Part shown: positions 3,178 through 58,392 of the stretch, piece by piece
How the letters are laid out: every line of letters begins with the position of its first letter
Position numbering within the stretch: position 1 is the stretch's first letter
DNA from: Pelagomonas calceolata
Taxonomy: Eukaryota
Direction of reading: 5' to 3'
DNA length: 64,000 nucleotides
Assembly: GCA_918797485.1 (NCBI GenBank)
Contig: CAKKNE010000004.1
Location: 558,001 to 622,000 of the forward strand
The notes under the pieces: generated by a model
Database searches by the model: none
Told to the model about the DNA's origin: nothing
Seen by the model: the letters and a program-made list of their open reading frames with translations, nothing else
Translations under genes and position numbers: made by a program

Positions 3178-3201
3178 GCTAGCGGCCTGTAAGCCACTAG
3201 C
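3178..3201 (-). promoter_or_regulatory. Copy of recurrent GCTAG...CTAGC upstream element
   Basis: gctagcggcctgtaagccactagc, about 60 bp upstream of the minus-strand ATG at 3116. Confidence 0.55.
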
Positions 3202-3416
3202 AAGCGAGAGTCCGCCGTCGCATTTGTCCCAGAGCTCCGCGCATTGAATCGAAGGGTAAGAGAACACGAGAGAATGACGACGCTCTCCGCCTCTCCTGCG
3301 CCTCCTTGGCTGCCCCATTTGCCAAACATCTCCCAAGGCACTCAACGCTGCGTTTCAGCAGCAGTTGTCGAGCTTCCCGAATCGCGTCGACACCTCGCGC
3401 TGCCCAAACGCGCACG

Positions 3417-3767
3417 ATGGCCGGCACCAAGACGAAAAAGCGCAGCGCGCCGACGCCGACGCTCCTGGAGCACATCCGCGAGCTAGAGGCTGCTGTCTCG
3501 AAGTTCGAGAAGACGATGCCCGAGGACGAGAAGGAGAAGCTGGCCGCGAAGATCAAAAAGTTGCTGGACGCCGTCAATCGCAAGTACGTGAGCGTCGACG
3601 ACGACGACGACGCGCCGAAGGCGGATGGCGAGACGCGCGACGAGCCGCCCCCCAAAAAGCAGCGGCTCGACATCAGCGAGGAGCTCTTGAGTTTCGTCAT
3701 CAAACCGGCGGCAATGGGGGCAGCTGCTGCGTTGGGCACCTCTCTCGTCGCCGCCGCTCTTTCCTGA
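3417..3767 (+). CDS. Small coiled-coil protein with NLS-like motif and hydrophobic tail
   Basis: MAGTKTKKR..., PPPKKQRL, C-terminal AAMGAAAALGTSLVAAALS. Codon usage is GC3-rich. Confidence 0.7.
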   Translation: MAGTKTKKRSAPTPTLLEHIRELEAAVSKFEKTMPEDEKEKLAAKIKKLLDAVNRKYVSVDDDDDAPKADGETRDEPPPKKQRLDISEELLSFVIKPAAMGAAAALGTSLVAAALS

Positions 3768-4025
3768 GTAGTGGACGAGGGACGTCATCGCGTCCAGTGG
3801 CGTAGGCCATTGTGTTTGTGCTTTGTGCATGAATCTGTACGCCCCACCTCCCATCCTTCACGACCCCCCTGTAGTAAACTAAAATCGTGACAGACTACTC
3901 CTAGTATGGTGTCACCATCTATGATTCAAGTTGACCCGGCTCGTCGTCCGGGTACTTGCCTTGTTTAGATCGGAGACAGAAAAGTTTCTTACCACACTCG
4001 AAGCCCCTCAAGCGACGCGCATCTA

Positions 4026-5297
4026 CTAGTAGGACCACGAGCAGAACTTGGAGGAGATGATCCCCGGCATGACCTTGAGCACGCCCTCGATTGCGACCGA
4101 TAGCGTGACTCCGGCGATGGCCGAGCCTCGAGCGCACTGGGCCATGGTCGTCATGGGCGCCGCGGCGGCGACTTGGTCAGTGATCCAGAGATTCAGTCGG
4201 TTCTCCAACGTCGGCGCCGACGTCCCTGGGACGAAGGCGACGCCGCCCAGGTCGCAGAGGTCCTCGAGCACCGCCCGCGTCGTGTTGCCGCCGGTTCTCA
4301 CTCTCTTCGCGGGCGGCTCGCCGCCGCCGGCCCGCGACCCCGGGCGCTTTCTCTGATTCGACCGGTCGAAAATGCCTTTCTCGGCGTCCTTGAGCCGCGA
4401 GATGAGATCCTCCTTCAAGCCTGTTTGCTTGAGGCCCTGCTCCTTGCACTTGGCCTTGAGCTGGGCGACCGTGACCGCCTTGAAGGGATCATCACTATAC
4501 GTCGACGCCGAGCCGTCGACGATCGCCGCGGCGGCCTTCGAGATCGACCCCTTGTAGTACTCGCCGCCCGGGCCGTTCAAATACCACTTTGAACCGTGTT
4601 TTCTTACCTTCCAGCCGCGCAGGTCGGGCACCTCGCCACCCAGCCGCACGACCGCTTTTTCGAGCTTGTCGAGGCCCTCGGCCTCCACGGCCGCCAACCG
4701 CTTGATCTCCGCCGGGGACCGCTGGCCCTCCTGCTTGAGCCGCTCCTTCGCCCGCAGCTCGCGGCAATATTTTGTGATATTCGTTATCAACAGCGGCCCA
4801 TGGCACTTCAAGAAGAAGTCGACGACGGCGTCCGTGAAGTCGGGCGCGTCGAAGAGAAACCAGCGGCCGTCGACGAACTGCGGGTTCGCCTCCTTGAACT
4901 GCTCGGCGAGCAGGCAGAAGTCGTGTAGTTGACCACTTCGATAATTAGCACACCAGTTGGCCTTGCCTCCGTTCTTGACGAGCCACGTGCAGTAGGCCTT
5001 GGTAGTGCCCACCGCGGCGGCCCATTCTTCGAGCTTGAGCTCGCGCGCCTGCTCGTCCTCGGGCGCGCCGCCGAACCAGGAGATGGCGCGCTTCTCAAAC
5101 GGCGAGCCGCAGAGCCGCCCGGATTCGCGGAGCGCGTCCTGGACCATAGGCTCCAGTATCTTCCGCTCCTGCATAATGTGCGCCGAGAAGGTCAATGCCT
5201 TGTAGCCGTGTTTGACCGCCTCCGTGTGGTGCAACTCACTCTCCGCGCCGGCGGCGTCGGCTTGGGCGATCAAGTGGGCGAGCTGGCTGGCGGCCAT
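4026..5297 (-). CDS. SAP-domain protein with NLS-like motif and hydrophobic C-terminus
   Basis: SAP motif VTVAQLKAKCKEQGLKQTGLKEDLISRL; PPAKRVR; likely start MAASQL at 5297. Confidence 0.8.
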   Translation of the reverse strand: MAASQLAHLIAQADAAGAESELHHTEAVKHGYKALTFSAHIMQERKILEPMVQDALRESGRLCGSPFEKRAISWFGGAPEDEQARELKLEEWAAAVGTTKAYCTWLVKNGGKANWCANYRSGQLHDFCLLAEQFKEANPQFVDGRWFLFDAPDFTDAVVDFFLKCHGPLLITNITKYCRELRAKERLKQEGQRSPAEIKRLAAVEAEGLDKLEKAVVRLGGEVPDLRGWKVRKHGSKWYLNGPGGEYYKGSISKAAAAIVDGSASTYSDDPFKAVTVAQLKAKCKEQGLKQTGLKEDLISRLKDAEKGIFDRSNQRKRPGSRAGGGEPPAKRVRTGGNTTRAVLEDLCDLGGVAFVPGTSAPTLENRLNLWITDQVAAAAPMTTMAQCARGSAIAGVTLSVAIEGVLKVMPGIISSKFCSWSY

Positions 5298-5968
5298 GGT
5301 CGCGGCGGCGTTTCGGGTCGATGCCAACCGATGGGGTAGCGCGCGTCTTACAGCGCCCGCGCGGGCACGGGGCTTCGCGCTAGAGGGCGCGGGGACCAAG
5401 AGGGTACCCGGGGGCAGCCCGCTGCGTCAAAGAAAATCTGTGCCGGCCTCTCAGGCGCACAACCAATGCTGCTGCCGCGGTTTGACTCGCGTCTCTAGTA
5501 GGTACGAGCTCGCTAGCGCGTCGCGAGCCGAGGCGTTTGGTGGCCGAGAGCTCTCTTCGGAGCCCGCGTCGGGGCCGCTGGACATGTCCCCGGTCGCCGG
5601 GCGCGGGCGACTGGCGCCCCAACCCGTGCACGGACCTCGAGCGGAAGGAGTGGCTCGCGATCCTGAAGGAGGGCCCACGCCGGAGCAAGTAAGTTTCTCT
5701 ACTACTGCCGTATTTATCACCCGAGCAGCCCGCGACGCCGCGTCCGCCGAGGCCCGCGCGCTATCGGACGATGCTCCCGTTAGCTTCCATCGAGTCCGTG
5801 TAAGCCTCGTTGCGAGCACGCCCACACTCTGCTGGCCCGCCTCGAGTGCCCATGCTCTCACAGTGCTGAAGAGGCGGCATTGGCACACGCTCACCTCGCA
5901 CCGCAAGCAAAAGCCATCTGAACGCGCGCATCGAATCATATTGCACGGCGCATCCACGAATTTGAGCC

Positions 5969-7638
5969 ATGCTGCGACGCATCGCTGCGCTCATACTCAT
6001 CTGCAGCCATGCCAGTGCACTGCGGCCGACGCGGCGCCAGGCGCTAAAGGGCACGGCAGGCTCCACAGTCATGCTCAATTTTTTACCAGGAGCTGCGCGA
6101 GCCGCCGCGAAGGGCCTCGGTTTGCCTACAAAGGAAACCAACGACGTCGTCAGCACCGTGGACGGCATCCGCCGCAAACGACTGGGCAACTCGGACATCG
6201 CCGTCAGCGAGCTCGCACTTGGGACGCAGCGCTGGGGCGGCGCCGACTTCAATAGTCCGGACGAGGAGTTGTGCCATCAGCTGTTGGATCGGGGCGTGCT
6301 CGAGGGTGGCATCAACCTAATTGACACGGCGGAGCAGTACCCGATCCCCTCGGACCGCTCTAGACCGGAGGGCGCGACGGAGGAGATCATCGGCCGATGG
6401 CTCAAGAAAGGCACCGGCCGACGAAACAAAGTAGTGCTGGCCTCAAAAATCACCGGCGGCCGCAACATCAACAAGCGTAGCATCCGAGAGGACTGCGAGG
6501 GCTCTCTGAAAAGATTAGGTGTGGACACGTTAGATGTCTACTTATTACACTGGCCGGCGCGCTACACGCCGCAAAGCAACTGGGGCGCGCCGCCGCGTCG
6601 AAGCCGTCGACGCCACGCCATCGACGCGACCCCCACGTAGGTCAATCGCTGGAGTACGACTGGGATTTAGGAGCGATCACGGTGCCGTCGGCCGCGAGTT
6701 TCCGGGAAATCGTGAGTGCCATGGGCGAGCTGATCAGAGAGGGTCCGCGCCGGTGCCGCTACAGACAATTTACGGGGGACTGTCGCGTCGATGGCGTACC
6801 GCACAGGCAAAATCAGAGGCTACGGCGCCTGCAACGACAACGCCGTGGGTCTCATGGGTCGCGCGCCAGTGCAGAAGTCATCGCGTCGGCCTCCACGCCG
6901 TCGACGCTCATCGCACACAGGCATGTACGGCGCCGCGCGCGAGCTCGGCGTGCCCGGGCCGCTCTGCATGCAGAACGACTACTCGATCGTGAATAGAAGG
7001 GTCGAGGAGAACGGCCTCTCGGAGGCGTCGTCGCCGGCGATCGCGAACGCTGGATTCATGGCGTACAACGTGCTCGCGGGCGGCATGCTGACGGGCAAGT
7101 ACGGGCTTGCGCCCGGCGACGGCGTCGCGCCCGCGGCCGTCGACGACGGCGACCGCGCCCGGGCCAAGAGGTATGCGGAAGCACCTAGGGGCCGGATGGA
7201 CACGCGGGGCTGGGGCCTGACATTGGGACGATACCGCACGACCGCGATGCGGAGCGCGGCTGCGCAGTACACCAAACTAGCGAAGGAGTACGGAATCAAG
7301 GGCGGTCCCGCGCGGCGTCCTGCTCCAAGGTCTGGACTCACGCCCGACGCCATCGACGCGCCACCGAGTCGCATCCGCGCGCAGGCCTGACCGAGCTGTC
7401 CTTCCGCTTCGTCGCCGGGCGGAAAGCGGTGACGTCGTCGCTCGTCGGCCACACGTCCCTCGCCCAGCTCGACGCGTCCATCGACGCCTACCGGAAGGCG
7501 GCGAAGGGCCCGCTCCCGGACCAGCTTCTGTGGGACATCGACCGCGTGCATCTACAAAATAGGTTGCCGCTCTTCGCGAACGACGAGGCCGGCAAGGATT
7601 GGAGAAATGAGGGCTTCATCGGGGAGCGCATTCCATGA
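5969..7638 (+). CDS. Aldo/keto reductase (Tas-like) with signal peptide; 5 exons
   Basis: AKR motifs LALGT, IDTAEQY, VLASK, LKRLGVDTLDVYLLHWP, GKIRGYG, QNDYS, LAGGMLTGKY. Three ORFs join in frame after removing introns 6585-6640 (GC-AG), 6743-6806, 6858-6920 and 7305-7384. Confidence 0.9.
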
Positions 7639-7869
7639 CGATCGCTTGATACTGCCTTCCCGTACGCCATCGACGCGGCATCGCGGCGATGGCGTGGTGG
7701 GATAGATTACGCCAGTCTGGCTCTACACCACCTCCACGCCATCGAGGCGACTCGCGCTCGCGTGGACGCCACCAGCGGGCGTGTTTGTTTAAGTTATAGG
7801 TCACCTTACAGCAACCTAACAGCGGCACGCGCCCTTACCTCTCGGATCGTTGAGCGCGCTCCACCGAAT

Positions 7870-12115: not shown

Positions 12116-12508
12116 GCTGCTGCGGCGGCGTCTGGCTGCTCCAGGCTGTGGAGGTCTGCAGGTGGAGGTGCTGCACCGGCGCTTTGGCAGGCCTCGGGCG
12201 CGTTGAGGATGTCGAGACCGCACCGTGGGTGGCTATAACGACAACGCTGGCTGCCCAGCGCCCTTCGCACGGCTCCAGAGACCCTGGCAGAAAAAAATTA
12301 ATCGTAAAAGCTAGCGTGATGTAACGCACTTTAAATGCTAAAGGTGGGCGCGCCACCTCGATATTTGGCGGTATAGCTCAACGTTTCGCTCTCGGGCGCT
12401 GTACACAGACCGACAGCACTGCCATACATCCGACGAGGTGAGAAATCACCTCTCGCACGCCGACGACGCGCCAACTAAGCATCCGCTCTCCCTACCGCCT
12501 TTAAAATC

Positions 12509-16706: not shown

Positions 16707-16729
16707 GCTAGCGGCATGTAGACACTAGC
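16707..16729 (-). promoter_or_regulatory. Recurrent GCTAG...CTAGC element
   Basis: gctagcggcatgtagacactagc, about 200 bp upstream of the minus-strand ATG at 16502. Confidence 0.55.
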
Positions 16730-29600: not shown

Positions 29601-30239
29601 GGTTTATAAAGCGGAGGCGTCCGCGGCGATTCCACTCCTAGCCTGCGGGGGGCGGTGAGCGTCTCGTGTGTGTCCGCCGCCGTTCGAGGCGTCTCGGTGA
29701 GCGTCTCGTGTGCGGGCATCTCATCGAGGGTCCCGCTGCCGTTCGCAGGTCTCGCGCGTGCGTCTCGTGTGTGTCGATTGGGTTCCAGCCCTCCCGCGGC
29801 GGCCGAGCGCCTCGCCGGGCCTCGCCGGCGCCCGCGGCGGTGCCTCAGAGCTCCCCGCAGCGCGCTGACAGGCCTGAGCCCTCGCTGGTTCCGCGGCAGT
29901 GCCTTGCAAAAACGTCCGCAGCGCGCTGACAGCGTCTCGCGTGCTCCAGGCCTCTATGCAAGCTAAGCAGCCGAGGCGCTGATAATCGGCGAGGACCGTA
30001 AGAGTGAGCAAACCAGCGCTCCGTGACAGCCTCGGGTGACGTATAGAGCTCCGGCAAGGCGGTTTGGGACTCTGAAATGCACGCTATAGGCCTAAAAGCT
30101 GAGCGTCGCTGTCTAGGCGATGCTGTTTTTTTTGCTCCTAGTGTCTTTACGCTAGCAGCGCTGATCGATCGATGGGCCGCCCACGAGTCCCCACACCGTC
30201 ACGGAACACCCTACGACACCGAAATACAGCATAGACTTA

Positions 30240-33040: not shown

Positions 33041-33342
33041 GGGGGTTCCTGTGGCTAACTGAGAAGTTGTTTCTAGTCGCATTGACGGCGTTTCGGGGGG
33101 CTGCTCGGCCGCTCGCGCGAAGCTGTGCGAGACTAGTGTGTTAGTCACGCTAGGTTCACCTTCGAGCCGGACGCTGCTGTTAGCAAGCCAGGCCGTCCAT
33201 AGCGTGAGTTACACAGCGCACTGACAAGCAGTCATCAGCACAGCTTGCGTACAGCAGTCGTTCGGCAACGCGCGAGCACTGCGGCAAAAGTCACCACCAG
33301 CGCTGCCACGCCGCACGCCAGCGAGGAACACCCACGAGCGCC

Positions 33343-33663: not shown

Positions 33664-33671
33664 AATTCAGG

Positions 33672-37800: not shown

Positions 37801-37824
37801 GCTAGCGGCATGTAAGACACTAGC
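37801..37824 (-). promoter_or_regulatory. Recurrent GCTAG...CTAGC element
   Basis: gctagcggcatgtaagacactagc, 115 bp upstream of the minus-strand ATG at 37686, in a tandem intergenic gap. Confidence 0.6.
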
Positions 37825-41515: not shown

Positions 41516-41539
41516 GCTAGTGTCTTATAGGCCGCTAGC
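41516..41539 (+). promoter_or_regulatory. Recurrent GCTAG...CTAGC element
   Basis: gctagtgtcttataggccgctagc, about 180 bp upstream of the plus-strand ATG at 41720. Confidence 0.6.
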
Positions 41540-41719: not shown

Positions 41720-42700
41720 ATGGCAGAGGGATCGATAGCCCATCATCCTTCATACGAACCGGGCCAACCGGCATTCGAGCCGGCTCAGGCGCAGCTTCTG
41801 GCTACGTTCCAGGCTGCTCAGCTCGCGATGACGACGGGCTGGCCAGCGATAGCGCAAGCCGCTCACGCCCTCGACCTGGACGTATTGCGCCGCGAGCTCG
41901 CGGCGGGCGTCGCTGTCGATCTTTTGAGTATGCCTGGTGGTCAGACGCCTTTACAGCTTAACTGTCACGTCACGAACGAAACAGTCGTCTACCGGCGCGG
42001 GGGCACGGACGAAGCCTTTCTTGCCTGGGCCGCTCAACCAGCTGAACGTCGGAGAGTAATCGACGACGGCATCGATGCAGACCGGCTCGCCTGCGTCGAG
42101 CTGCTGCTGGCGCACGGCGCATCACCAAGACCCGGGGGTATCTTTTTTCCACCGCTCATAGACGCAGTTGCACAAGGTAGTCTGGCTCTTGTCAATGTGC
42201 TTCTAGATGCCGGCAGTGACGTCTCCGTGCTTAGCACCCCCCCTCCATTAGAATTTGCCTGTTCGCCGTTGAGCATGGCGGTGATTTCACATTATCATGC
42301 TCTTCGAAATGGGCGTCCGATGGGATATGATCATATCGCCATTGCAGACGCTCTTCTTAAGGCGGGCGCGGATGCGAACCCCCCCGAAATAAAAGAAAGA
42401 TCACTGATGAAGTGGGCAATCGGTGGTGGCCACCGCCGCCTCTGGCCTGTCCTGCTGCGAGGCGGCGCGATTCTCCCACCTCCCGGTGAGAACCCATTCA
42501 ACTGGCCCGGGGCAAGTTACAATACTGAACGCGCGGACCCCTACCTGCAAAAGATCGACGCCGCGGGCAGCTGGGCGGCCCACGAGAAAGCGCACCGCGC
42601 GGCGCTCCAGGCGATCTTCGCGCCGAAGTTCACGCACCTCGTCCCGCCGGAGCTCGTGGCGCGCATCGTCGAGTACTCGTTCCACCTCGGCTTCTACTAA
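41720..42700 (+). CDS. Ankyrin-repeat protein
   Basis: GQTPL, VELLLAHGA, VNVLLDAGSD, ADALLKAGADAN. Confidence 0.85.
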   Translation: MAEGSIAHHPSYEPGQPAFEPAQAQLLATFQAAQLAMTTGWPAIAQAAHALDLDVLRRELAAGVAVDLLSMPGGQTPLQLNCHVTNETVVYRRGGTDEAFLAWAAQPAERRRVIDDGIDADRLACVELLLAHGASPRPGGIFFPPLIDAVAQGSLALVNVLLDAGSDVSVLSTPPPLEFACSPLSMAVISHYHALRNGRPMGYDHIAIADALLKAGADANPPEIKERSLMKWAIGGGHRRLWPVLLRGGAILPPPGENPFNWPGASYNTERADPYLQKIDAAGSWAAHEKAHRAALQAIFAPKFTHLVPPELVARIVEYSFHLGFY

Positions 42701-42713
42701 GTATGTGTTAGTG

Positions 42714-43826: not shown

Positions 43827-44029
43827 GCAAGAGCGTCGTGAACGCAGCGGTGGCGTGCGTTGCGCGTCGAGTGCTAGCTGCAGTGCAGCAGTGTGTGGGC
43901 CGGATGGTGCACCACGCGTCGGCAGGCGTCGGTGGTGGCTGCGAGCTGCTCCAGAGGCACCTACGGCGGCGCTATTTGGTGCAGAATGCAGCTATTAGAA
44001 GCTGCAGCGAGTTGCCGGCTTGAGTCGAC

Positions 44030-44054
44030 GCTAGCGGCATTGTAACACACTAGC
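44030..44054 (-). promoter_or_regulatory. Recurrent GCTAG...CTAGC element
   Basis: gctagcggcattgtaacacactagc in a divergent intergenic gap, oriented with the gene starting at 43826. Confidence 0.5.
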
Positions 44055-44257
44055 CAGCATTTTAGTTTTTGCGGCTCTACGGCTTTACGGCTGCTTAGGC
44101 TGCTCATAACGCCGCAGCGGGCTGCCTCGGATCGCTGCGGACGCTACTGACCACTTGTGCGCAGCCCAGCTCGCTCACAGCCCCTGGGGGCAGCACTCTC
44201 AAAAAGAGATCCACCAGCACGCCATCGACGCCATCGACGCGACACGCGACCGCAGCC

Positions 44258-46433: not shown

Positions 46434-46954
46434 TCCTGGTGTGGTGGCGCGAACCGACGGCGCGTTCGTCGAGGGCCGGGGAGTAGGCGGCGCGTCGACA
46501 TCGTGATAGTAAGTTTGTGTGTTTTTCTTCTTATGGAGTCTGTCGTAGAGGATGTACCAGGCGCCCAACCAATCGGCTGGATTGCCCGAGCTTGCCCGGT
46601 TTCATCTCGAAAAGACGGCCCAAAATCGACGTCGTGCCACAGAGGTGTAAACCAGCGCCACGAAGAGTTCCTTCACGCACGTCTCGCACCGCCGGGCGCA
46701 CGAGAATCGTCTATCTCGTCGTGCATTTGATTAAAAAGCACCACTCTCTGAGAGCAGCTGGACAATCCTCCTCGTGACGGCGCGCACGCCTGGCGCCGTC
46801 CATCCGCGGCCTTCGGCGCGACCGCAAGGACGCCTCTGCGCACGCGCGTCGTCGGCTTTCGGTCTATGTGGGTTCACGCCGGCGGCGACGCGCACGAGTG
46901 ACGCCGCACTGCCGCGGCGCGCGATAACGCGTCCGCCCCTCGCACGCAGGCAGC

Positions 46955-47425
46955 ATGGCGCGCGGCTGGTTCATCTGCGGCGGCTCGAGCAAAGACACCG
47001 TCCCGAGGCCGCCCCTCCGCGAGAGCGAAGGCGACGAGGTGAGCGTCAAGCCCGTGGCGGCCGCCGACGAGGACGCGCCCGCCGCCGAGGACGGCGCGCC
47101 CGCCGACGAGGACGACGCGCCCGCCGACGAGGCCGAGGCGGCGCGCGAGTCGGAGTTCGAGATCTGGAACGGTGATCCTGAGGAAATTGTCGCCGCGTCG
47201 CGAAAGAGCTGGCCGCCGTCGGAGGCGAAGCGCGTCGCGGGGGCGGCGCGAAAAAAGAGCTGGCCGTCGGCGGAGCTGGAGCGCGCCGCGGGGGCGCCTC
47301 CGGCCGCGGAGGCTCCGGGGGCGTCGCCGGTCAACGCCTACTGGTGGACGCGCAAGGTCCTCGCCGAGAACGAGGTCGATTTGGACGACGACCACGACCT
47401 CGACGACGGCAAGTCTAGGATCTAA
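46955..47425 (+). CDS. Hypothetical acidic low-complexity protein with short internal repeats
   Basis: ATG ORF with DEDAPA repeats and the pair RKSWPPSE/KKSWPSAE. Confidence 0.5.
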   Translation: MARGWFICGGSSKDTVPRPPLRESEGDEVSVKPVAAADEDAPAAEDGAPADEDDAPADEAEAARESEFEIWNGDPEEIVAASRKSWPPSEAKRVAGAARKKSWPSAELERAAGAPPAAEAPGASPVNAYWWTRKVLAENEVDLDDDHDLDDGKSRI

Positions 47426-47439
47426 GTGCACACAATATA

Positions 47440-48957
47440 TTAAGATGGAAACTCGCCGCCGCCTCCCTCGCGCGGCGGCGTCAGCAACGCGCCAGTCGGC
47501 CGCAGCGCCCTAGGAGGAGGCGATCCGCGCAGCGGCGAGGGCGTCGGCCGTTTGCCGACGACGGACGGCGCCGCGATGCCTGGGGCCGCCAACGTATTCA
47601 CGGGCGACACGTCGACGAGCTCGAAGATGCCGCGCGACCGCGACCGCCGCCGGTAGAAGAGGAAGCTGACGATAAAGACAGCAAGAAGGACGCACGTGAC
47701 GACGACGGCCACGGCCGCGGCGGTCGCGACCTTGGCGTCGCTCGTCGACGAAGAGCTTTTATCAGAGGAGGTCCCTCGTCGGCCCTCGATGAAGCCGAGC
47801 GCGGTCTCGATCTCGTCGGCGCGGCCGCAGACGTGGCCAGCTTTTACTGTACACTCGACGGTTTCTCTGGAGGCGCCGACGAACGTGGAACACGACACGT
47901 CTCCATTTCCGTAGGCGTTGGTCGCGACGGGCGCGGCGGGCCCGCCGTGGTGGAGGCTCCACGCCCGCGTCACGTTGCGCGCGGCCGTGTAGTACCTGCG
48001 GTGCGTCGGACGGTGTGAGGACTCTGAGCGACGGCGTGGGGCTGGGGCTGCTCTGTGCTAGTGTGGTGTCCTGCTCGATGGCGTGGATGTTCACAAGTAC
48101 CACCAGTACGCCAACAACCGCCCTCCACGCCATCGACGCGGCTCATTGTCAGCAAGGACACGGGACACATACCAGCCGCGCTCGTCGTCCTCGTCTACGG
48201 TCGCGAGCGCGACGCCGGGGCCCGGCGCGTCCTCGCTCGCCTCGTACGGAATCGTCGTGTCGGAGAGGCCCCAGATCCCGAGCAGGTGGGCGGAGGACGA
48301 GGGCGGCCGCCAGAAGCCGGGGTGAGGCGCCCCCACGATCGACACGCCGCCGGCGAAGAGCCCTGCACTTCTTGAATCAGCTAGCGCCTCGTAGACCATC
48401 ATGGCCCCGTTCGAGCAGCCCGCGACCCACACCTGCTCCAGGTCCACGCACAGCATCTTCTCGACCGCTTCGAGCGCATCTAACAAGACTCGCGTCGAGT
48501 CCTCGCACGTCGTCCACCAGCAGCCGTCCGAGTTTTCGCACTCGCAGGTCTCGGCATAATAGGAGCAGTAGTCTGTACTACCAGGCTTGCAGGTGGCGCC
48601 GCGCGGCCCTGGACTTGAACTGCTGCCTCCGGCGTTCCAGCTCTGCCAGTTTTCCGGCCCGCTGCCTTCCAGCGCTGCCGTAGCGATGCCTTTTTTCCTT
48701 GCTGTTGATGCGAAGGCGTCGCCCTCGGACGCGTCGCCGCCCCAGCCGTGCATGTATAGAATAAGGGGCACTGGCGTTTCGTAGTCGTAGTCTTGTGGCA
48801 GCGTCAAGATGTGGTTGTGGCCGTCTAGCGCGAGCGGTAATGACTCCATCCCCACATATTCGAGGATGTCCGTGCTCTCGACGCCGCAGCCCGAGCTCAC
48901 GGCGCCGGCGGCCACGCGCGCAACCGCGGCGACAGCGAGGAGCCGCCGGCATGCCAT
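47440..48957 (-). CDS. Alpha/beta hydrolase (PHB-depolymerase/LpqC-like esterase) with signal peptide and C-terminal TM; 2 exons
   Basis: PLILYMHGWG; WNAG; VAGCSNGAMM (GxSxG). GT-AG intron 47996-48172 joins to the ...GHVC...TM exon. Confidence 0.85.
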
Positions 48958-49543
48958 CGCTGCGCAGACCTCCGGAGCGCCTAAAACTGGTGATCTATAG
49001 CTGCGCAGAACCAGCAATGGAATGCTGTGCGGAGCAGCCAGCCGAAATGCGTGCGAAACAAATGCAAGGCAGTGATCAGGCGACGCAGTAGTCCAGCGGG
49101 CACCACTCACGAGTGCTATTTTCACCGCTGCGGCCGCGTACCGCTCGTACGCGCGCGGCGCGCAGCAATTGCTGCCTAACGTGCGGGTTCCGACGCTTCG
49201 CCCAGGCCCGCGCCAACGTCGCCTGTGGTCCGACCCGACAGGTTCTTGGACTGGTCTTCCACATCCCTACTTGTTGAAGCGAGCCGCGCGGCTTCCGCTC
49301 GTACGCGCGCGCGCGTCCCAGCCTGAGTACCCGTCGGACTCGCTTCTTTTTCCGGACGCGTCTCCGCCACCCCAGTAGACGGTCCTTCCGGCCACTAGCA
49401 CACGACTGGGGCTCGCGTCACGGCACATGAGCAGGCTTTGCAGATCGACAGATTGCAAGACCAACATCGAGCGCCGCGGGGCGGGCTGCGAGGAGTCCAG
49501 AGACCGGGAGCGCCAGCGCGCCACGCCTCTTTGCACCAGCACC

Positions 49544-50414
49544 ATGGCGGGGTTGAAAGCAGCAATCGTCGCGCTGGCCCTGAGCACTGCCAGCTGCTTT
49601 CAGCAGGCACCGCAGACCGGCGCCGCGCGTGGCCGCCCGCGCCTGAAATCCTACTGGTGCCTTCACTCGGAGCATTTCCGACGCGGGGATGCGGTCGCGC
49701 GGCACCGCTTTGAACCTTGCGCCGTCCGCACCGTCGCGTCGCCGCGCAGGCCAAGGCGTCATCGTCAACGGCTACGTCCCCAGCGGCATGTCGCCCGAGG
49801 CCTACGCCGCCATGAAGAAGCGCGAAGAAGACGCGCGCAAGAAGAAGCAGTTCGGAAAAGGAGGAGCTAGAGGTTTTGAAAGCAGAAGCATGCAGTCGTT
49901 CGTCGCGGGCCTCGAAAAAGGAGAGACCAAACATTTGTTCCCGGTCAACCCGGAGAAGGTGCGCAAGGGCGAGATCGCCCTGAAGGACGTGCCCTACATG
50001 CAGCGCGGCGGCTCCTGGACGAACTCCGACCTCACGCAAAAGAAAAAGGGCTGGATGAACACGGGCTTCGGCATGAACGCCTACAACGACGGCAAGGCCA
50101 AGGCCCAGAAGGCCAACAAATATGACGCGAAGTATAATGCGGTCAAGCCGTCCGTCGGGATTTTCGGCGACGCCGGGGCGCTCGACTGGACGGGCCGAGG
50201 TGCCCGCGCGGGCGGAGGTGCGCAAGCCGGTACCAGGGATGGCCTCGTGAATCGGGCCAAAGCGAATGGATTGTCCAGAGATCAGCAGATGTGGCGCGAC
50301 GCCGGGGCGTTATCTCAGAAACAAATAAACGCCCAGAAGCGCTGGGGCGGTGCGCCGAAGATCGACGTCAACGGCGCCAAGAAGCCGGAGAAGAAGTTCT
50401 TCGGGCTCTTTTAA
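49544..50414 (+). CDS. Plastid-targeted hypothetical protein; 2 exons
   Basis: MAGLKAAIVALALSTASC-FQQAP bipartite presequence. A phase-1 intron ending at 49749 (donor GT 49629 or GC 49620) joins to YVPSGMSPEAY...KKFFGLF. Confidence 0.8.
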
Positions 50415-50542
50415 GGCCGGTCGCGGTCCGGTCTACGTGTTTCGAGACGGCCCGCCCAAGTCTAGGGCCGAGGGGGTACTATCGCTGTCTAAGTGCCCGT
50501 TATTGTAGTGCCATCGCGGCGATGGCGTACGGTGGTAGCACA

Positions 50543-51241
50543 CTACCCTCTACTTACGCTGAACCGCGCGCCCCCGTCGTGAGTCGTGATCTTCACAGTC
50601 CTCACCTCGCAATTGGAGAATCGTTTCGTGCAAGGATTCGGCGCCTCGACGCAACTGTGGCCGCCATGGTCGTCCGGATCGAAGGTCACGGCGAGCAGAC
50701 CGCCGTGACACACGACCGCGATGGTGTCTTCTGGTCGTTTCACGAGCCACTGTAGAGCCGCCACGCCCCGCCGCGCGACGGAGGCCTCCTCCTCCAACAC
50801 CTCCGCGTCCCACCTTTCATCATTTTCAGGTAACTGGGACACGTCGACGAAGGGAAAGCGCTCCTTGAGCTGCGACGCGGTCCGTCGTTTCGAGTTGACA
50901 AGCTGGCCGCACCATTCCCGTAGCTCTTCGATGCAAACGATTTCCCTACCAGGATACATCAATGAAGCGGTCTCGACCGCTCGCGACAGGGGAGAGGCCA
51001 CGACTAACTGGACGTCGGGTGCGCGAGCGTTTCTCGCCTGCTCCCTTCCTACGTCTGTGAGGTCGGCATCAAATGCATCATCTTTCCGCATTTGGTCAAT
51101 AAATTCGTCAAAAGGACACCCCGCGTCGCGCTTCGCCTCCGCGCGCACGTTGTGCTGGGCCTGGCCGTGGCGCACGAAGCTTATGGTCTGCGTCCGCGTC
51201 GCCGCGACCGGTGGTGCCGCATTTTTTAACGTTGCTGCCAT
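50543..51241 (-). CDS. Histidine phosphatase (phosphoglycerate mutase family)
   Basis: FVRHGQAQHN, DADLT..G..QA, VASPLSRAVETA, VVCHGG, FSNCE. Confidence 0.9.
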   Translation of the reverse strand: MAATLKNAAPPVAATRTQTISFVRHGQAQHNVRAEAKRDAGCPFDEFIDQMRKDDAFDADLTDVGREQARNARAPDVQLVVASPLSRAVETASLMYPGREIVCIEELREWCGQLVNSKRRTASQLKERFPFVDVSQLPENDERWDAEVLEEEASVARRGVAALQWLVKRPEDTIAVVCHGGLLAVTFDPDDHGGHSCVEAPNPCTKRFSNCEVRTVKITTHDGGARFSVSRG

Positions 51242-51819
51242 GCCGGACGCGGACGGCGCCAGCAGGGCGACGATGAATGCGATGCGTGCCAGCTTGCACG
51301 GAGTGCTGCACCGCTGTGCTGACTTGTTGTGATGGACCCTCTGCGGCGAGTTCTTCCAGATTGCAGCGTGCCGCGACGGCGTGTGCTGTGCAGGCTGTGC
51401 TGACAGTGTGTCCTCTGCTGCTAGCCCGGCCCTGCGAATGAGCTAGATACGTGCAGCAGCCCGTCGTCTTAGTGCGATCCGTCGTGCGGATCAATCGACT
51501 GTCCGTTTTTCGCACGCCTGTGCGTGTAACCAAAGGGGGTGCGTGGTCTTGCAAGGCTCTCCCAGCAGTTTTTTTGCTTGCAGCACACTGCCGTCTCCGC
51601 ACCTTAAAGAGGATTGAAACACCTCGCCGCACTGCTCGGACAGCTGTAAATTGCGGCGGAACCACAAAACAGCCGCAGCGGCGCGCCGTCTTGCGCACAC
51701 CACACTGCCCACAGGAGACTCAACTGCATTTCACGCGCGCCGCCGCGACGCCCGTTCAAAAGTAAAGCCGGCCTCGGCGACGCAGAAGATACCCGGGCTC
51801 CAATTTGCACTCATCAAAC

Positions 51820-52590
51820 ATGGTCGCGACGCGTAGAGCAAAAGCCGCCTCGCCGGCGCCCAAGCCGCGCGGCCGCGCCCAGTCGCCGGCGCGGAAGCCT
51901 GCAGCCAGAGCCAAGTCGCCGGCGCGCAAGCCCGCCGCGCGAGCCAAGTCGCCACGACGCAAGGCCAAGAACGGCAACGGCATCGCGCACACCTTACAAA
52001 CCGGAAGAGAACATTCACTGGTCGAGTTCCTCATGCTAAGGGTCATGGTCATCTTCGAGGAGGGCTCGAACGTCCCTCCGGGAAGCCCACCGGCACCCCA
52101 AACAGGCTGGTACGCCGCTTCTTCTTCCACCTTCGCTTTGTTAGGACTGTTCGCGATGACGCGGTTCACGTGCCCCGTCTTCCCGGGCCATCAAGTGGAG
52201 GCGGTGATCTGCGGGATTCAGTCCATATGTAGCTGGGGCAACGACGTCCACAGTTTTGGCCGTCCAAGTAAGTGGAAGAACGCCGACCGCCTCGTCGCCT
52301 CGGTGAACATCATGTGGCAGATGTGCAAACTTATTTGGTTGGAGATGACTCTCTTGGAGTACGTCGTGTGGATCGGCGGCCTATGTGTCGCATTGGCTTG
52401 TTTTCAAAGAGGCCAGAAGTTGTTGCATTCGAGGAGCCCGAAGCCCCCCACGAAACGGGACTTCTCCGCCTTTTTGTGGTGGCATGCCGTCTGGCACTGC
52501 GTGTTGCCGTTCGCGGCAGGGGCGTGGATGTGGGTTCGCGGGCGAAGGTTGGGCTGTGGCTGCGTCGACGCGGTGGTCTGCCGGTTTTAG
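51820..52590 (+). CDS. Multi-pass membrane protein with H1-like SPxK/R-repeat N-terminus
   Basis: SPARKPAARAKSP repeats; several TM segments; S...NDVH and WWHAVWH motifs (CREST-superfamily-like, inference). Confidence 0.7.
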   Translation: MVATRRAKAASPAPKPRGRAQSPARKPAARAKSPARKPAARAKSPRRKAKNGNGIAHTLQTGREHSLVEFLMLRVMVIFEEGSNVPPGSPPAPQTGWYAASSSTFALLGLFAMTRFTCPVFPGHQVEAVICGIQSICSWGNDVHSFGRPSKWKNADRLVASVNIMWQMCKLIWLEMTLLEYVVWIGGLCVALACFQRGQKLLHSRSPKPPTKRDFSAFLWWHAVWHCVLPFAAGAWMWVRGRRLGCGCVDAVVCRF

Positions 52591-52599
52591 TAACTTTAT

Positions 52600-53337
52600 T
52601 TATTTCTTACGGAGCTCTCGCAACCTAGTTTCGATGGCGTCGACCTCGGGCTGCGCCGCGTCGACCCTTAAAACACCGGAGGCGAGGTCGTCGCCGATCT
52701 TGCGCTTCCGCGCTTCCAGCTCCTCAATTTGCGCCGTGGGTCCCTCCGTCGGGACTTGGGGAGGCAGCGGCGCCCAGACGGACGCGCCACACCGCGCCAC
52801 GGCGATTTCTAGTTGGGAAGGCCGTCGGACCTCCTCCTCCGCAACCATCACCTCATCTACACCCTCGACGTCCTCGATATCGATGTCGAGGTCGCACGCT
52901 ATTCCCAAAGCTTCCCGACATTCTGACGCCGACGCTCCACCTGCTACCTCTACTCGTCTACCGTTGAATGACACGGTTCTAGGTGTCGCGAGCTCCTCTG
53001 TCAACTTTTGGACATAGGCCCTTCGTTCCGGATCCTCGTCGGCGAAGGGGTACCTCTGCCTTACGAGGTCGACCAGTGAGGGAGAGACGCTCTCGCAGAA
53101 GCGGCGAAAACCAAGTTCGTGGTGCATGAGCAGCGCGACGTAGGCGCCCGTGCCTGCACAAGCGGCGGAAGCACCTATGGCCTTGAGGTACCAGGGCCAG
53201 CCCTTCTCTGGGGTTGCTGCTGCTGCCTCGTTCAGAAGATTGCCGGCTTTTACGGATGCATACGTCTTCTCGGTGCTGAGGCGCCTGAGCGGCCGCGGCG
53301 ACCGGCGTGCGGCGCGGCTGGCTTGCCGCAGGAGCAT
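52600..53337 (-). CDS. Probable mitochondrial single-TM protein
   Basis: MLLRQASRAARRSPRPLRRLS presequence-like start and one hydrophobic segment. Confidence 0.65.
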   Translation of the reverse strand: MLLRQASRAARRSPRPLRRLSTEKTYASVKAGNLLNEAAAATPEKGWPWYLKAIGASAACAGTGAYVALLMHHELGFRRFCESVSPSLVDLVRQRYPFADEDPERRAYVQKLTEELATPRTVSFNGRRVEVAGGASASECREALGIACDLDIDIEDVEGVDEVMVAEEEVRRPSQLEIAVARCGASVWAPLPPQVPTEGPTAQIEELEARKRKIGDDLASGVLRVDAAQPEVDAIETRLRELRKK

Positions 53338-53428
53338 CGTTGCAAGTCGACAGCGCCGGGTCAAATATAGCTCCTGGCTGTGATTTTCTCGCGTCCGCGA
53401 TGAATTGCGCTTCAGCCGCAAAAGCCGA

Positions 53429-53452
53429 GCTAGCGTCCGGTAAGACACTAGC
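53429..53452 (-). promoter_or_regulatory. Recurrent GCTAG...CTAGC element
   Basis: gctagcgtccggtaagacactagc, about 90 bp upstream of the minus-strand ATG at 53337. Confidence 0.6.
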
Positions 53453-53602
53453 AACAGGCTAGTATGTTTCAAGGGGCAGCGTCCGTCCAGCGCCCCGCGG
53501 CCCATCCAACAAACTACGGACGGAAGAAGGCCCACAAAGCCACGGAAGCCACCAACGTAACTACGGGCAGCACGCCATCGCAGCCCGACAACACCAACAA
53601 CG

Positions 53603-55027
53603 ATGCTGGCCAAGATGAGCCCGCGCGTCCAGCCCCTGGAACACGACCCCGAGTCTCCTGCCCCGCGTTTACAAACGCCCCCCGGACCGTCCAGTGGGAC
53701 ACAACAACCCTTCGCCGACACGATGGACGAGCAGTGGCCCGGGCCCGATTCGCCCCCGAAGACCAGCACGCCCTCGTTCCACAATTACGATGATGAGGAA
53801 GAGAAGGACCCCGACGAGGTCTTCGGTCCGCTGCGGAATCGAGCCTCGGCTTTGAGAGGTGCGGCGGAGAACGGCGACGCCTCGGCGCAAGTACGGTTGG
53901 GTTACATGTACGTCGATATAGGAGATCGTACAAATGCGGAGGACTTTTTTGGGAGAGCAGCCAGGAATCATGATGCGGACGCCCACTACGCCCTGGGCAT
54001 GCTCGCCAAAAGTGGACCGGAAGCGTCATCTACCGATGCCGCGGAGGTCGAGGCAGCTTATGCGGCAAGTGCCAGACATCTGTCGCGGGCGGCGAAGCAG
54101 GGCCACTCCTGGGCGGCCTACCACCTCGGGGACGCGTATGCGCGAGGGGTCGGTGTTGTTAGGGACCTGAAGATCGCGGAACGGTTTTTACGTTCAGCTG
54201 CTGCTGCCGGGTGTATCCCTGCGATGAACGCCCTAGGCGCCTGTCTCGAACGTTCAGCGAGAAATCCCGTCACCGAGACCTTAGATGTCCCCGAAGACGT
54301 CTTTACCAGTAAGCCTCCTGAGGAGGAGGACTCACCGAGCAAAGCTAAATCTGGAAGAGACCGGAAACTCAAGGACGCGTGTGTCTGGTACGCTCGCGCG
54401 GCCAAAGCCGGGGATCGCGACGCGCAGTGCAATTTGGGGCGGTGCCACTACCTGGGCATCGGCGTGCCCCGGGATCCGTCGCGTGCCCTTGACGTCTGGC
54501 TGCTGGCCGCGGACCGGGGCTGTCCGGCCTCGTGCAACAACGCGGCGGCATTACTCGCGAGGAAAGCCGCTGATGATGCGGGCGAGGGCGTGTTAGCCTT
54601 AGAAGCTGAAAGGTTATTACTACAAGCTGCGGAGTTGGAGAGTACCACCGCTCGCTTCAACGTCGCTGTGATTCGCTCAGCAGGTCTAGGGGACGTTGTG
54701 AAACATGAAGAGGAATCAATAAGGCAGTTGAGGCAGTCTGCTGAATCAGGTGAGCCCGCGGCGAATTTGGCTTTAGGTGACGCCTATGCGGCGGGCATCG
54801 GCGTGCCCCGCCAATCGGACAAGGAGGCGTTTCGGTGCTACAAGGTGGCCGCGGCCGCCGGCGAGCCCGACGGCCAGTATCGGTTGGGCTTGTGCTATGA
54901 GCGGGGCAAGGGCTGCATGGGCGACGCGCAGCGGGCGATGCGGTTGTACGATGCGGCTGCTAGGGCGGGTCACTTGGCAGCAGCGGCTCGGGCGGGTGCC
55001 ATGCAGACGGGGGGCGAGGAGTATTAA
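53603..55027 (+). CDS. Sel1-like repeat protein
   Basis: Repeated A(Q)xxLGxxYxxGxGV...AA..G motifs. Confidence 0.9.
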   Translation: MLAKMSPRVQPLEHDPESPAPRLQTPPGPSSGTQQPFADTMDEQWPGPDSPPKTSTPSFHNYDDEEEKDPDEVFGPLRNRASALRGAAENGDASAQVRLGYMYVDIGDRTNAEDFFGRAARNHDADAHYALGMLAKSGPEASSTDAAEVEAAYAASARHLSRAAKQGHSWAAYHLGDAYARGVGVVRDLKIAERFLRSAAAAGCIPAMNALGACLERSARNPVTETLDVPEDVFTSKPPEEEDSPSKAKSGRDRKLKDACVWYARAAKAGDRDAQCNLGRCHYLGIGVPRDPSRALDVWLLAADRGCPASCNNAAALLARKAADDAGEGVLALEAERLLLQAAELESTTARFNVAVIRSAGLGDVVKHEEESIRQLRQSAESGEPAANLALGDAYAAGIGVPRQSDKEAFRCYKVAAAAGEPDGQYRLGLCYERGKGCMGDAQRAMRLYDAAARAGHLAAAARAGAMQTGGEEY

Positions 55028-56376: not shown

Positions 56377-56781
56377 GGTTGTGGGCAGCCCTTTTGTGGG
56401 GTGCGCGCGGCGGCGGCGGTGTGCGATGCTGCTATTTATGGTTCGCGAGCTCTGCGTTACTATGGGTGCCTTTTGTGCACCGCTGTGGCGAGCCGCGACG
56501 TCCATCGATCGAGAGCTGCCGGAGGCTGCCCCGTACGATTTTCTTCGAGCGCGTCGTGGGCTCACAGAGGGCTCCCGAGCGCCTCCGCCGCGGCGGGACT
56601 TGTATCAAACGACGGGACCGTCGCGGGCCAGAATCGCAGATGCAAACCGAGTGCTGCTGTGAATTGCACTCTGCGACGGCGCATCGCGCCCGGACGGCGC
56701 GCAGGGCACGCGCAATAGACCACTAATCGAGTGCTGCGAGACGCTGCGCTCCGAGGCCGCGCGCGGGCAGCACCTACAGCC

Positions 56782-58149
56782 ATGAAGCCACACTGCCATG
56801 CAGTGTTGCTCGCCGCCCTTGCAAGCGCCCACGCCCCGAAGGCCGACAACATCTCCCAAACGCCTTATCGGAGGAAAGCCGCCGTCTTCGCGTCCCTCGA
56901 GGACGGCACGGCAGTCCTCTTCAGCGGCAAAACCAAAGACGAGAGGGTCAACAATGGCCACATGGCCTACGTGGGCGACACGTGGCTCTTCACGCCGGGG
57001 CCGGCGTCCTTCTGGCGGCGGCTGCACTTCGGCGACGAACGCGGTTCGAGGCCGGGGCCGCGGTGGAAGTCGGCCGGCGATGGAGTGAACGGGAATCTAT
57101 ACATATTTGGAGGGCACGTGCAGCGCGGGAGTCACTCGTTCTATTACGACGACATGTGGGTCCTCGAGAAGCAGTCTACATGGCGAGAGATTGAGAAGAA
57201 AGATGTCTGGCCTCCCGCCAGACGAGGTCACGCCGCGGCCCACGCGGACGATCTACTCGTGATTGTGGGCGGCCGCCAGCACCACTCCGAATGCCTGAGG
57301 GACGCCTGGGCCTTCAACTCGACGTCGGAAGTCTGGAGGAAGACGTCGACGCCTCCCAAAGGTAGTGGTTATGGCTGTCGGTGGGGCCACAGTGCAACAG
57401 CAATACCGCCCATCCCAACCGCCAAAGATGGTTCGGTGCAATCAGAACATACTATTGCAGTGTTTGGTGGCCGCCAGAAGACGAAAAAATCATATGATTA
57501 TCATGATAGCTCAGTATGGGTCTACTCGCCGAAGTGGGACGCCTGGCGCGAGCTCAATGGTCCCGCTGATGCTTCGAGACCGCAAGCGCGGGACCACCAC
57601 GCCGCCGCTTATCTCGACGGGGCGTTGTACATCCATGGTGGGAAGGTGACGGACCAGGCTACGTCGGCCAATGATGACCTCTGGCGTTTTGACTTCGTGA
57701 CGCACATCTGGCAACAGTTATCGTATGATGGCAAGGTGCCTCGTTCGAGATATTTGCATTCTGCTTGTTCGTGGCCTTCAGCACCTAGAGCGGCGCCGGC
57801 CGCTCTCGGTGCGCGACGGGGAGCTGTGTTACTCTTCGGAGGGGAACACATCAAATCAAGAAGAAACGGCAAGAAGAAATATGTGAGGTTCGACGACGTC
57901 TGGGGCTATTGGGCGGCGCGGGCCCCCACGGACGGCACGTGGGTCCGGCTCGTCGACAATGCCGGCGGCACCAAAGAACCCGTGCTCTCGCCCTTTGCGC
58001 TCGTTGGTGTCCGGGTGGCGTCGGCCGTGTTGGTGGTATTGCTGTCGCTGGGCGTCGTGGCCTTGGGGCTGTTCCACCGGTTCTCGCAGCAGAGCATGGG
58101 CGGCACTTCTGCCTTCGAGGCCGGCGCCTGCGCGGGCGACGCGTGTTGA
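56782..58149 (+). CDS. Kelch-repeat protein with signal peptide and C-terminal TM
   Basis: LYIFGG, VIVGG, AVFGG, LYIHGG and LLFGG, each with a downstream W; TM near the C-terminus. Confidence 0.88.
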   Translation: MKPHCHAVLLAALASAHAPKADNISQTPYRRKAAVFASLEDGTAVLFSGKTKDERVNNGHMAYVGDTWLFTPGPASFWRRLHFGDERGSRPGPRWKSAGDGVNGNLYIFGGHVQRGSHSFYYDDMWVLEKQSTWREIEKKDVWPPARRGHAAAHADDLLVIVGGRQHHSECLRDAWAFNSTSEVWRKTSTPPKGSGYGCRWGHSATAIPPIPTAKDGSVQSEHTIAVFGGRQKTKKSYDYHDSSVWVYSPKWDAWRELNGPADASRPQARDHHAAAYLDGALYIHGGKVTDQATSANDDLWRFDFVTHIWQQLSYDGKVPRSRYLHSACSWPSAPRAAPAALGARRGAVLLFGGEHIKSRRNGKKKYVRFDDVWGYWAARAPTDGTWVRLVDNAGGTKEPVLSPFALVGVRVASAVLVVLLSLGVVALGLFHRFSQQSMGGTSAFEAGACAGDAC

Positions 58150-58368
58150 TCCGCCTCCCTCTACAATTCGATATGCTGGTAACTAACTACAAGTATCCTT
58201 TATTTGAGCCTCGAAGGTCATTGCAGCTTCTTGATGGGGGACGTTTTCCCACGCGAGACTGAGAATACTGTATACAGGTACCTTATTGCTATTTCGAAGC
58301 TCCGGCTGGGCATCCTCACCGAGCAGGGAGAAGCCTCTTATCAGCTCGTTCCTGTTTTTTAGAATCTG

Positions 58369-58392
58369 GCTAGTGTCTTACGGGCCGCTAGC
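58369..58392 (+). promoter_or_regulatory. Recurrent GCTAG...CTAGC element
   Basis: gctagtgtcttacgggccgctagc, about 170 bp upstream of the plus-strand ATG at 58563. Confidence 0.6.

What the first reader, a model, noticed from the sequence alone, without database searches (positions are those of the whole stretch)
3178..58392. Strand-oriented 24-bp upstream element GCTAGTGTCTTA-N3-GCCGCTAGC: candidate lineage-specific promoter motif
Seen: seven strong copies at 3178-3201, 16707-16729, 37801-37824, 41516-41539, 44030-44054, 53429-53452 and 58369-58392. Weaker copies lie at about 5495, 12310, 19980, 22000, 30138 and 33133. All are intergenic and consist of two CTAG half-sites about 14 bp apart. 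All seven strong copies read GCTAGTG...CGCTAGC on the sense strand of a gene whose ATG lies about 60-205 bp downstream. This includes three tandem gaps (37801, 41516, 58369) where the target gene is unambiguous. I saw none between convergent genes. The downstream genes are functionally unrelated. Inference: a general core-promoter or nucleosome-positioning element, perhaps bound by a dimeric factor. I do not recognise it as a described motif.
Basis: partly seen in the sequence, partly recalled or inferred. Interest (0 to 1): 0.8.

Follow-up and report, generated by a model that had tools for sequence, protein, structure and literature searches.

The report
Two-way promoter motif of Pelagomonas
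A recurring 23-25-letter DNA motif sits just upstream of many genes of an ocean alga (likely Pelagomonas calceolata), faces either way rather than only towards the gene, and is likely the landing site of an unknown protein that keeps promoters open.

Summary
The motif is real. Seven strong copies lie at the stated places, all between genes (0 expected by chance). A metagenome scan added 125 distinct sites; named proteins beside four of them are Pelagomonas calceolata or close to it. All 81 sites on long loci are non-coding. Only 1 of 43 motif-bearing gaps is convergent, and 0 of 57 unselected convergent gaps carry it. 'Strand-oriented' fails: in tandem gaps 12 copies face the gene start and 14 face away (p=0.85). 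Coding starts lie a median 199 and 195 bp off on the two sides. Stranded RNA reads put copy 41516 in the untranscribed gap; copies 44030 and 53429 fall between divergent 5' ends. Flanks share no homology except a 5' TT edge and a ~30-bp companion element at about 10 sites. One orthologous pair keeps the motif amid diverged flanks; another lost it by decay. Hairpin changes are uncompensated. Best reading: a bipartite, pseudo-palindromic site for a general-regulatory-factor-like protein at about a fifth of start-containing gaps (roughly 1,400-7,300 copies). The factor and chromatin effect are inferred. A HINE-like transposon-end origin is not excluded. My paper searches found no description of it.

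The parts
3178..3201 (-). Strong copy (1 mismatch) in a divergent gap; ATGs 61 bp (left, - gene) and 215 bp (right, + gene) away
16707..16729 (-). Strong 23-bp variant in a divergent gap; ATG of the - gene (WW domain) 204 bp away
37801..37824 (-). Perfect copy in a tandem (-,-) gap, facing the gene start 114 bp away, about 65 bp past the upstream coding end; not resolved by RNA reads
41516..41539 (+). Perfect copy in a tandem (+,+) gap; lies in the untranscribed gap between the upstream 3' end (41449-41455) and the first reads of the ankyrin gene (from about 41550-41575)
44030..44054 (-). Strong 25-bp variant in the middle of a divergent gap (both ATGs 203 bp away); RNA contigs stop at 44012/44017 and one restarts at 44072
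53429..53452 (-). Strong copy (1 mismatch) in a divergent gap, between piles of fragment ends at 53407 (- RNA) and 53507 (+ RNA)
58369..58392 (+). Perfect copy in a tandem (+,+) gap, 170 bp before the MatE gene ATG; no RNA reads laid here
30137..30156 (+). Weak, short-spaced copy (CTAGs 14 bp apart) in a tandem (-,-) gap upstream of ribosomal protein L31e; faces away from that gene
33132..33154 (+). Weak copy with both CTAGs (17 bp apart) in a tandem (+,+) gap; score near chance level
12310..12333 (-). Doubtful copy: right half only, in a divergent gap; score at chance level

Best explanation
The motif is a bipartite, pseudo-palindromic DNA element that lies in either orientation about 200 bp before coding starts on one or both sides, and it is likely the binding site of an abundant sequence-specific protein that would keep the promoter open and let transcription start from either edge. 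Shown: two inverted half-sites (CTAG-Y-G core) 17-19 bp apart with a one-sided TCTTAC block; location in start-containing gaps; no orientation bias; absence from the mRNA at the one site mapped finely; retention at one orthologous promoter. Inferred: a dimer or a two-domain protein with a flexible linker binds it (the spacer varies by 1 bp either way); like yeast general regulatory factors it clears nucleosomes, and in tandem gaps it may also separate the upstream 3' end from the next start. Unknown: the protein.
For: Seven copies in 64 kb, none in shuffles. 125 distinct sites with unrelated flanks. 81 of 81 sites on the loci long enough for the gene map are non-coding. Motif-bearing gaps: 22 divergent, 20 tandem, 1 convergent (p=0.003 against length share). 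Unselected gaps: 0 of 57 convergent against 10 of 51 start-containing (p=3e-4). Tandem orientation 12 against 14 (p=0.85); median distance to coding 199 bp (n=45) on the 3' side and 195 bp (n=49) on the 5' side (p=0.72). A second scoring of all 125 sites with the same codon model gave 18 divergent, 10 antisense, 9 sense, 0 convergent, 88 unresolved. RNA depth is 0 over 41476-41535 in 3 of 4 runs; 5' ends flank 44030 and 53429 on both sides. Orthologous loci L006/L054 (88% identity in the coding flank, 73% in the other flank) keep the motif with a 1-nt spacer change. In 25 rows not selected for it, the C that mirrors the left half-site's G is present 25 of 25 times, while the pair outside the CTAGs is broken in 12 of 25 (two sites are counted on both strands).
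Against: No binding, footprint or reporter data. Poly(A) RNA-seq does not map caps, the four raw runs carry one sample label, and only 3 of 7 window copies were informative. One run has 3x reads across 41516, and contigs of run X1 span 37801, 41516 and 53429. Most promoters lack it: 12 of 16 divergent window gaps have no strong copy, and the deepest-covered gene (49689-50414) has none. In orthologous pair L035/L102 one lineage has only a decayed copy. TT lies immediately 5' at 81 of 125 sites and a companion element follows about 10, which also fits a transposon end.
Confidence: 0.68

Rival explanations
1. It is mainly a boundary element: the bound protein blocks polymerase from the upstream gene, or anchors replication or chromosome loops, and its place near starts reflects open chromatin rather than activation.
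For: At 41516 the upstream transcript ends about 60 bp before the motif. Many tandem copies lie 40-130 bp from the upstream coding end. Yeast Reb1, Rap1 and Abf1 block polymerase II (PMC5052057, abstract and opening paragraphs seen). The companion element occurs only where the motif's 3' side faces a gene end: 5 of 13 such sites, 0 of 45 facing a start (p=3e-4).
Against: Half of the motif-bearing gaps are divergent and contain no gene end, while convergent gaps with two ends almost never carry it.
Confidence: 0.13
2. It is a functionless relic: the 5' end (TT, subterminal repeat, nested inverted repeat) of an old Helentron/HINE-like or MITE family that inserted into open promoter DNA.
For: TT immediately 5' at 81 of 125 sites. 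An inverted repeat about 10 bp from the first, as in DINE-1 5' ends (PMC4067079, passages seen). A shared ~30-bp sequence directly 3' at 10 sites; local duplications at L070 and L079; L014 continues into (CT)n, telomere-like repeats, an inverted copy of the left end and a palindrome, part of it 98% identical to L058.
Against: Eight of the 124 loci's 125 strict sites plus two more hits carry the companion; the rest share nothing beyond the motif. An inverted 3' repeat follows only 6 of 125 sites within 600 bp; no flanking direct repeat over 2 bp. The motif stays intact where orthologous flanks have diverged, and the one loss seen is decay in place, not an empty site. Neutral relics should decay evenly along their length.
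Confidence: 0.08
3. It is a directional core-promoter element that always points at its gene.
For: Three of three tandem window copies face the gene start. The motif is asymmetric, and 5-6 of the antisense sites are a special class with the companion element.
Against: 14 antisense against 12 sense in tandem gaps; 12 of the 14 lie within 264 bp of the facing gene's coding end, leaving no room for a hidden gene. About nine antisense sites lack the companion. Transcripts begin close to both edges at 44030 and 53429.
Confidence: 0.05
4. It acts as an RNA stem-loop in 5' UTRs, the T/G asymmetry being a G-U wobble pair.
For: The GCTAGTG strand folds better than its complement at 3 of 3 sites; T opposite G in 20 of 25 rows.
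Against: Not in the transcript at 41516 in 3 of 4 runs; either strand faces genes; folding z-scores -1.9, +0.5, -2.3; the outer pair is broken in 12 of 25 rows with one compensated change.
Confidence: 0.02

Closest known systems
Yeast general regulatory factor sites (Abf1, Reb1, Rap1, Cbf1)
   Same: Frequent sites upstream of unrelated genes; the set of such factors is species-specific and unknown motifs of this kind were found in single yeasts (PMC2897762, passages seen). Abf1's site is gapped and bipartite (recalled).
   Different: No sequence likeness to those sites (recalled motifs). Longer and near-palindromic. Nucleosome depletion, which defines the class, was not testable here.
Vertebrate CGCG element TCTCGCGAGA
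   Same: Palindromic promoter element that drives transcription from divergent start sites of TATA-less promoters (10.1101/202622, abstract seen).
   Different: 10 bp and a perfect palindrome, against 23-25 bp with an asymmetric, variable spacer. Its activity was shown by reporters; none exist here. Its binder BANP is recalled, not looked up.
Oomycete core promoter elements INR, FPR, DPEP
   Same: Lineage-specific stramenopile promoter motifs found in a minority of genes (PMC3599244, abstract seen).
   Different: Those lie at or downstream of the start site; this one lies outside the transcript where mapped and faces either way. Their sequences were not compared here.
DINE-1 / HINE (non-autonomous Helentron) 5' ends
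   Same: TT target, subterminal repeat and a nested inverted repeat 3-22 bp away; some copies hold microsatellites (PMC4067079, passages seen). L014 shows a similar layout.
   Different: No shared body, 3' repeat or 3' palindrome at most sites; repeat 7-10 bp and imperfect against 12-15 bp; no empty site found.

Membership tests
General regulatory factor-type promoter site | Frequent, upstream of functionally unrelated genes | tested here: met
   10 of 51 unselected start-containing gaps, 0 of 57 convergent; unrelated Pfam families
General regulatory factor-type promoter site | Works in either orientation, outside the transcript | tested here: met
   12 sense, 14 antisense; zero depth at 41516 in 3 of 4 runs; position only, activity not measured
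General regulatory factor-type promoter site | Conserved at orthologous promoters | tested here: inconclusive
   Kept in L006/L054, present in both of the partly homologous L090/L091, decayed in L035 against L102; three pairs only
General regulatory factor-type promoter site | Nucleosome depletion centred on the site in vivo | not testable with these tools
   No MNase or ATAC data laid
General regulatory factor-type promoter site | A sequence-specific protein binds it | not testable with these tools
   No genome held; no binding data
Directional core promoter element | Fixed orientation to the gene | tested here: not met
   p=0.85 for bias; 10 antisense, 9 sense by a second scoring
Directional core promoter element | Fixed distance to the start site | tested here: inconclusive
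   Nearest 5' signals 13-55 bp from the motif edges at three sites, with further piles at 82-84 bp; no cap data
Canonical Helitron 3' end | CTRR end followed by host T, hairpin about 11 bp upstream, shared body | tested here: not met
   Both CTAGs are followed outward by C in the consensus, and flanks do not align; features from PMC4067079
HINE / DINE-1 | TT at the 5' edge and a nested inverted repeat | tested here: met
   TT at 81 of 125; inverted repeat about 10 bp away
HINE / DINE-1 | Shared core, 3' subterminal repeat and 3' palindrome | tested here: not met
   Companion at about 10 sites; inverted repeat within 600 bp at 6 of 125; full layout only at L014
HINE / DINE-1 | Empty orthologous sites | tested here: inconclusive
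   None in three homologous pairs
MITE or cut-and-paste footprint | Target-site duplication | tested here: not met
   No flanking direct repeat over 2 bp at 125 sites; 2-bp repeats at 10
Structured RNA (Rfam family, tRNA) | Match to a family; transcribed; compensated pairs | tested here: not met
   No Rfam or tRNA hit in the window

The most novel reading that the evidence does not exclude
The motif is the surviving 5' end of a rolling-circle (Helentron/HINE-like) transposon that seeded thousands of promoters in the Pelagomonas lineage and was taken over as the genome's main promoter anchor, read by a host or domesticated transposon protein. The companion element and the L014/L058 repeat would be longer relics, tolerated only where they face a gene's 3' end.
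Probability: 0.18. Interest if true: 0.78.

Novelty: new member of a known kind. Interest (0 to 1): 0.5.

Why it matters
[quoted passage not shown] A 24-bp site at about a fifth of start-containing gaps gives bait for pulling down a general transcription regulator, an anchor for mapping promoters and nucleosomes, and a candidate compact two-way promoter for genetic tools. If it came from a transposon end, it would be an unusually large case of promoter rewiring in a genome with about 6% repeats (10.1101/2024.10.30.620910, passage seen).

Tried and rejected
No whole genome is held and the metagenome records are not searchable whole, so genome-wide counts are extrapolated. Viral contigs: 0 strict matches; a looser pattern gave 5 hits in 44-51% GC contigs without the flanking consensus, taken as chance. 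Prokaryote genomes: 3 hits, one per metagenome-assembled genome, each a full consensus copy with alga-like flanks, read as contamination. General repeat search of the window showed the motif only as one inverted pair among those listed. Rfam and tRNA scans: nothing. Earlier findings of the scan: none in three look-ups. The motif string in papers: 9 hits, by title unrelated to algae, listings only. A likeness of the left edge to the RFX half-site (recalled) was dropped because position -3 is G in only 11%. L001/L017 homology proved to be a gene family away from the motif. L021 may hold the motif in an intron or a broken gene, but the contig ends 13 bp upstream. No TATA enrichment beside the motif. 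The giant virus of Aureococcus methylates CTAG (PMC12700378, passages seen); no link could be tested. A Hi-C preprint mentions P. calceolata but not motifs. Supplementary files of the genome papers were not read and could hold a motif description.
Full report
OBSERVATION. A search for the 24-mer with up to three mismatches finds five copies (3178-, 37801-, 41516+, 53429-, 58369+), none in 100 shuffles. Listing CTAG pairs adds 16707-16729 (23 bp) and 44030-44054 (25 bp); the two CTAGs are 17-19 bp apart. A self-trained codon model places all seven between genes: four in divergent and three in tandem gaps; none of 16 convergent gaps has one. Stranded RNA reads over 37,000-54,500 agree with the gene strands. 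Of the six weak copies, 30138 and 33133 keep both CTAGs; 12310 and ~22000 have one; scores of 17 of 24 arise about once per shuffled non-coding set.

ORGANISM AND RANGE. No genome was held. Three window proteins lie on a 5.31-Mb NCBI contig, and most 2-kb blocks of the window have 60-68% GC, in line with six chromosomes in 32.4 Mb at 63.6% GC (PMC9481584, section 6 read). The organism is therefore inferred to be P. calceolata, with relatives in the metagenomes. Viral contigs gave no strict match, and the three prokaryote hits are single copies read as contamination. Other pelagophyte genera could not be tested. Seven copies in 64 kb extrapolate to about 3,500 per genome (95% interval 1,400-7,300), from one window only.

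ANATOMY. The consensus is (GCTT)GCTAGTGTCTTAC-N1-3-G(C/A)CGCTAGC(T): TT precedes 81 of 125 sites and T follows 57%. The two ends are inverted half-sites with core CTAG-Y-G, and a TCTTAC block sits on one side. To avoid the bias of the strict pattern I collected 25 rows requiring only CTAGTG-N11-13-CTAG (8 from the window, 17 non-strict from loci, two sites counted on both strands). The C mirroring the left G is invariant (25 of 25), the left block is mostly kept (68-84% at TCTTA), and the pair just outside the CTAGs is broken in 12 of 25 with a single compensated change. This is the pattern expected of a protein-read site, not of a selected hairpin.

POSITION. All 81 sites on loci long enough for the gene map are non-coding. 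Gaps holding a strict site and resolved on both sides: 22 divergent, 20 tandem, 1 convergent, fewer convergent than length share predicts (p=0.003). Among unselected gaps, 0 of 57 convergent and 10 of 51 start-containing gaps carry a copy (p=3e-4). The exception, L014, is a 740-bp gap filled with repeat-like DNA.

ORIENTATION. In tandem gaps 12 copies face the gene start (3 window, 9 loci, two of which the script flagged as possible introns and one search showed to be tandem gaps) and 14 face away (p=0.85). Two antisense cases have 481 and 833 bp on the far side and could hide a small gene; without them it is 12 to 12. Coding starts lie a median 199 bp from the 3' edge (n=45) and 195 bp from the 5' edge (n=49), p=0.72. 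A second scoring of all 125 sites with the same codon model gave 18 divergent, 10 antisense, 9 sense, 0 convergent, 88 unresolved on at least one side.

RNA. Four raw poly(A) runs, all under one sample label, were laid on 41,296-41,895 in 20-bp bins. The upstream transcript ends at 41449-41455; depth is 0 over 41476-41535 in three runs and 3 in the fourth; reads resume in the bins from 41536-41575, with a pile of ends at 41621. At 53429-53452, fragment-end piles lie at 53407 (- RNA) and 53507 (+ RNA). At 44030-44054, contigs of the - gene stop at 44017 and 44012, a contig of the + gene begins at 44072, and a raw-read pile lies at 43946. Against this, contigs of run X1 span 37801, 41516 and 53429, contigs cannot show a start, and poly(A) reads do not map caps. 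The motif is not required for expression: the deepest-covered gene in that stretch has none.

CONSERVATION. L006 and L054 are orthologous divergent promoters from diverged lineages (88% identity in the coding flank, 73% in the other flank); the motif is kept with a 1-nt spacer change. L090 and L091 share a 69-bp upstream block and both carry it. In L035 against L102 one lineage has only a decayed copy in place. Three pairs suggest selection with turnover but do not measure it.

COMPANION ELEMENT AND TRANSPOSON QUESTION. Flanks do not align except for a ~30-bp sequence, GATTTCCTAAACGCGGGAGCCCTGGAAGCC. A profile built from eight such sites gave 10 hits at E<0.01 in the window and the 124 loci, all within 60 bp 3' of a motif copy and on the same strand. 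It occurs at 5 of 13 sites whose 3' side faces a gene end and 0 of 45 facing a start (p=3e-4, one double count removed). L014 runs from the motif through (CT)n, the companion, telomere-like repeats and an inverted copy of the left end to a palindrome; 59 bp of this are 98% identical to DNA just 3' of the motif in L058. This recalls DINE-1/HINE elements (PMC4067079, passages seen). But an inverted 3' repeat follows only 6 of 125 sites, there are no target-site duplications and no empty site was seen. The element fails membership as a HINE or Helitron end, while an old origin from one stays open.

MECHANISM. Most likely (0.68) an abundant sequence-specific protein, a dimer or two domains on a flexible linker, binds the two half-sites, keeps the short intergenic region open and lets transcription start some tens of bases from either edge, as yeast general regulatory factors and the vertebrate CGCG element do (PMC2897762 passages; 10.1101/202622 abstract). 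Position, symmetry, lack of orientation and absence from one mRNA are shown; binding, nucleosome clearing and activation are inferred. Rivals: boundary or roadblock role (0.13), neutral transposon relic (0.08), directional core promoter (0.05), RNA hairpin (0.02).

NOVELTY. Searches for the motif string and for pelagophyte promoter motifs found no description (listings only). The main texts of the genome paper and the pangenome preprint have no occurrence of 'motif', 'promoter' or 'intergenic'; their supplements were not read, and subscription journals are not covered.

Noticed in passing
L007:752-788, L014:2911-2949, L020:1-28, L035:3027-3060, L040:3496-3527, L050:723-753, L066:157-191, L070:725-758, L079:487-508, L082:325-365: A ~30-bp companion element directly 3' of the motif, seen only where that side faces a gene's 3' end or could not be classed; none in the window.
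   Followed up: partly
window 22126-22208; L040:2082-2159; L059:2145-2216 and 4941-5024: A dispersed ~70-80 bp repeat (80-94% identity) lying just past gene 3' ends, with a partial tandem copy in L059; unrelated to the motif apart from a GGAGCCC(C)TGG stretch like the companion's.
   Followed up: no
L014:2580-2715; L058:1-72: A ~135-bp MITE-like repeat with palindromic ends that carries an inner CTAGTG-N10-CACTAG with the same 18-bp CTAG spacing as the motif; L014 also has telomere-like CCCTAA repeats beside it.
   Followed up: partly
window 6588-6640, 6746-6806, 6860-6920, 7309-7384, 39450-39526, 47993-48169: Short introns carrying GCCATCGACGC-type inverted repeats, like the Introner elements of pelagophytes (recalled); related copies also lie outside introns (7660-7760, 44220-44245). 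The 39450 and 47993 introns are confirmed by reads.
   Followed up: no
window 45364 and 50514: Dozens of RNA reads carry uniform loose ends at these places (47-91 reads, 98-99% agreement), probably reads of other loci sharing a short repeat.
   Followed up: no
L130 (G001:C13), L131, L132: Single perfect motif copies in three prokaryote metagenome-assembled genomes, likely algal contamination or chimeric contig ends; the motif could serve as a contamination marker.
   Followed up: partly
L021, 13 bp from the contig end: Motif plus a partial companion sits directly before a membrane-protein-like reading frame without a start codon; an intron or an insertion into a gene cannot be told apart.
   Followed up: partly
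window 62729-64000: 99-bp periodic repeats in a coding region on the minus strand (ankyrin-like 33-residue period, inferred).
   Followed up: no
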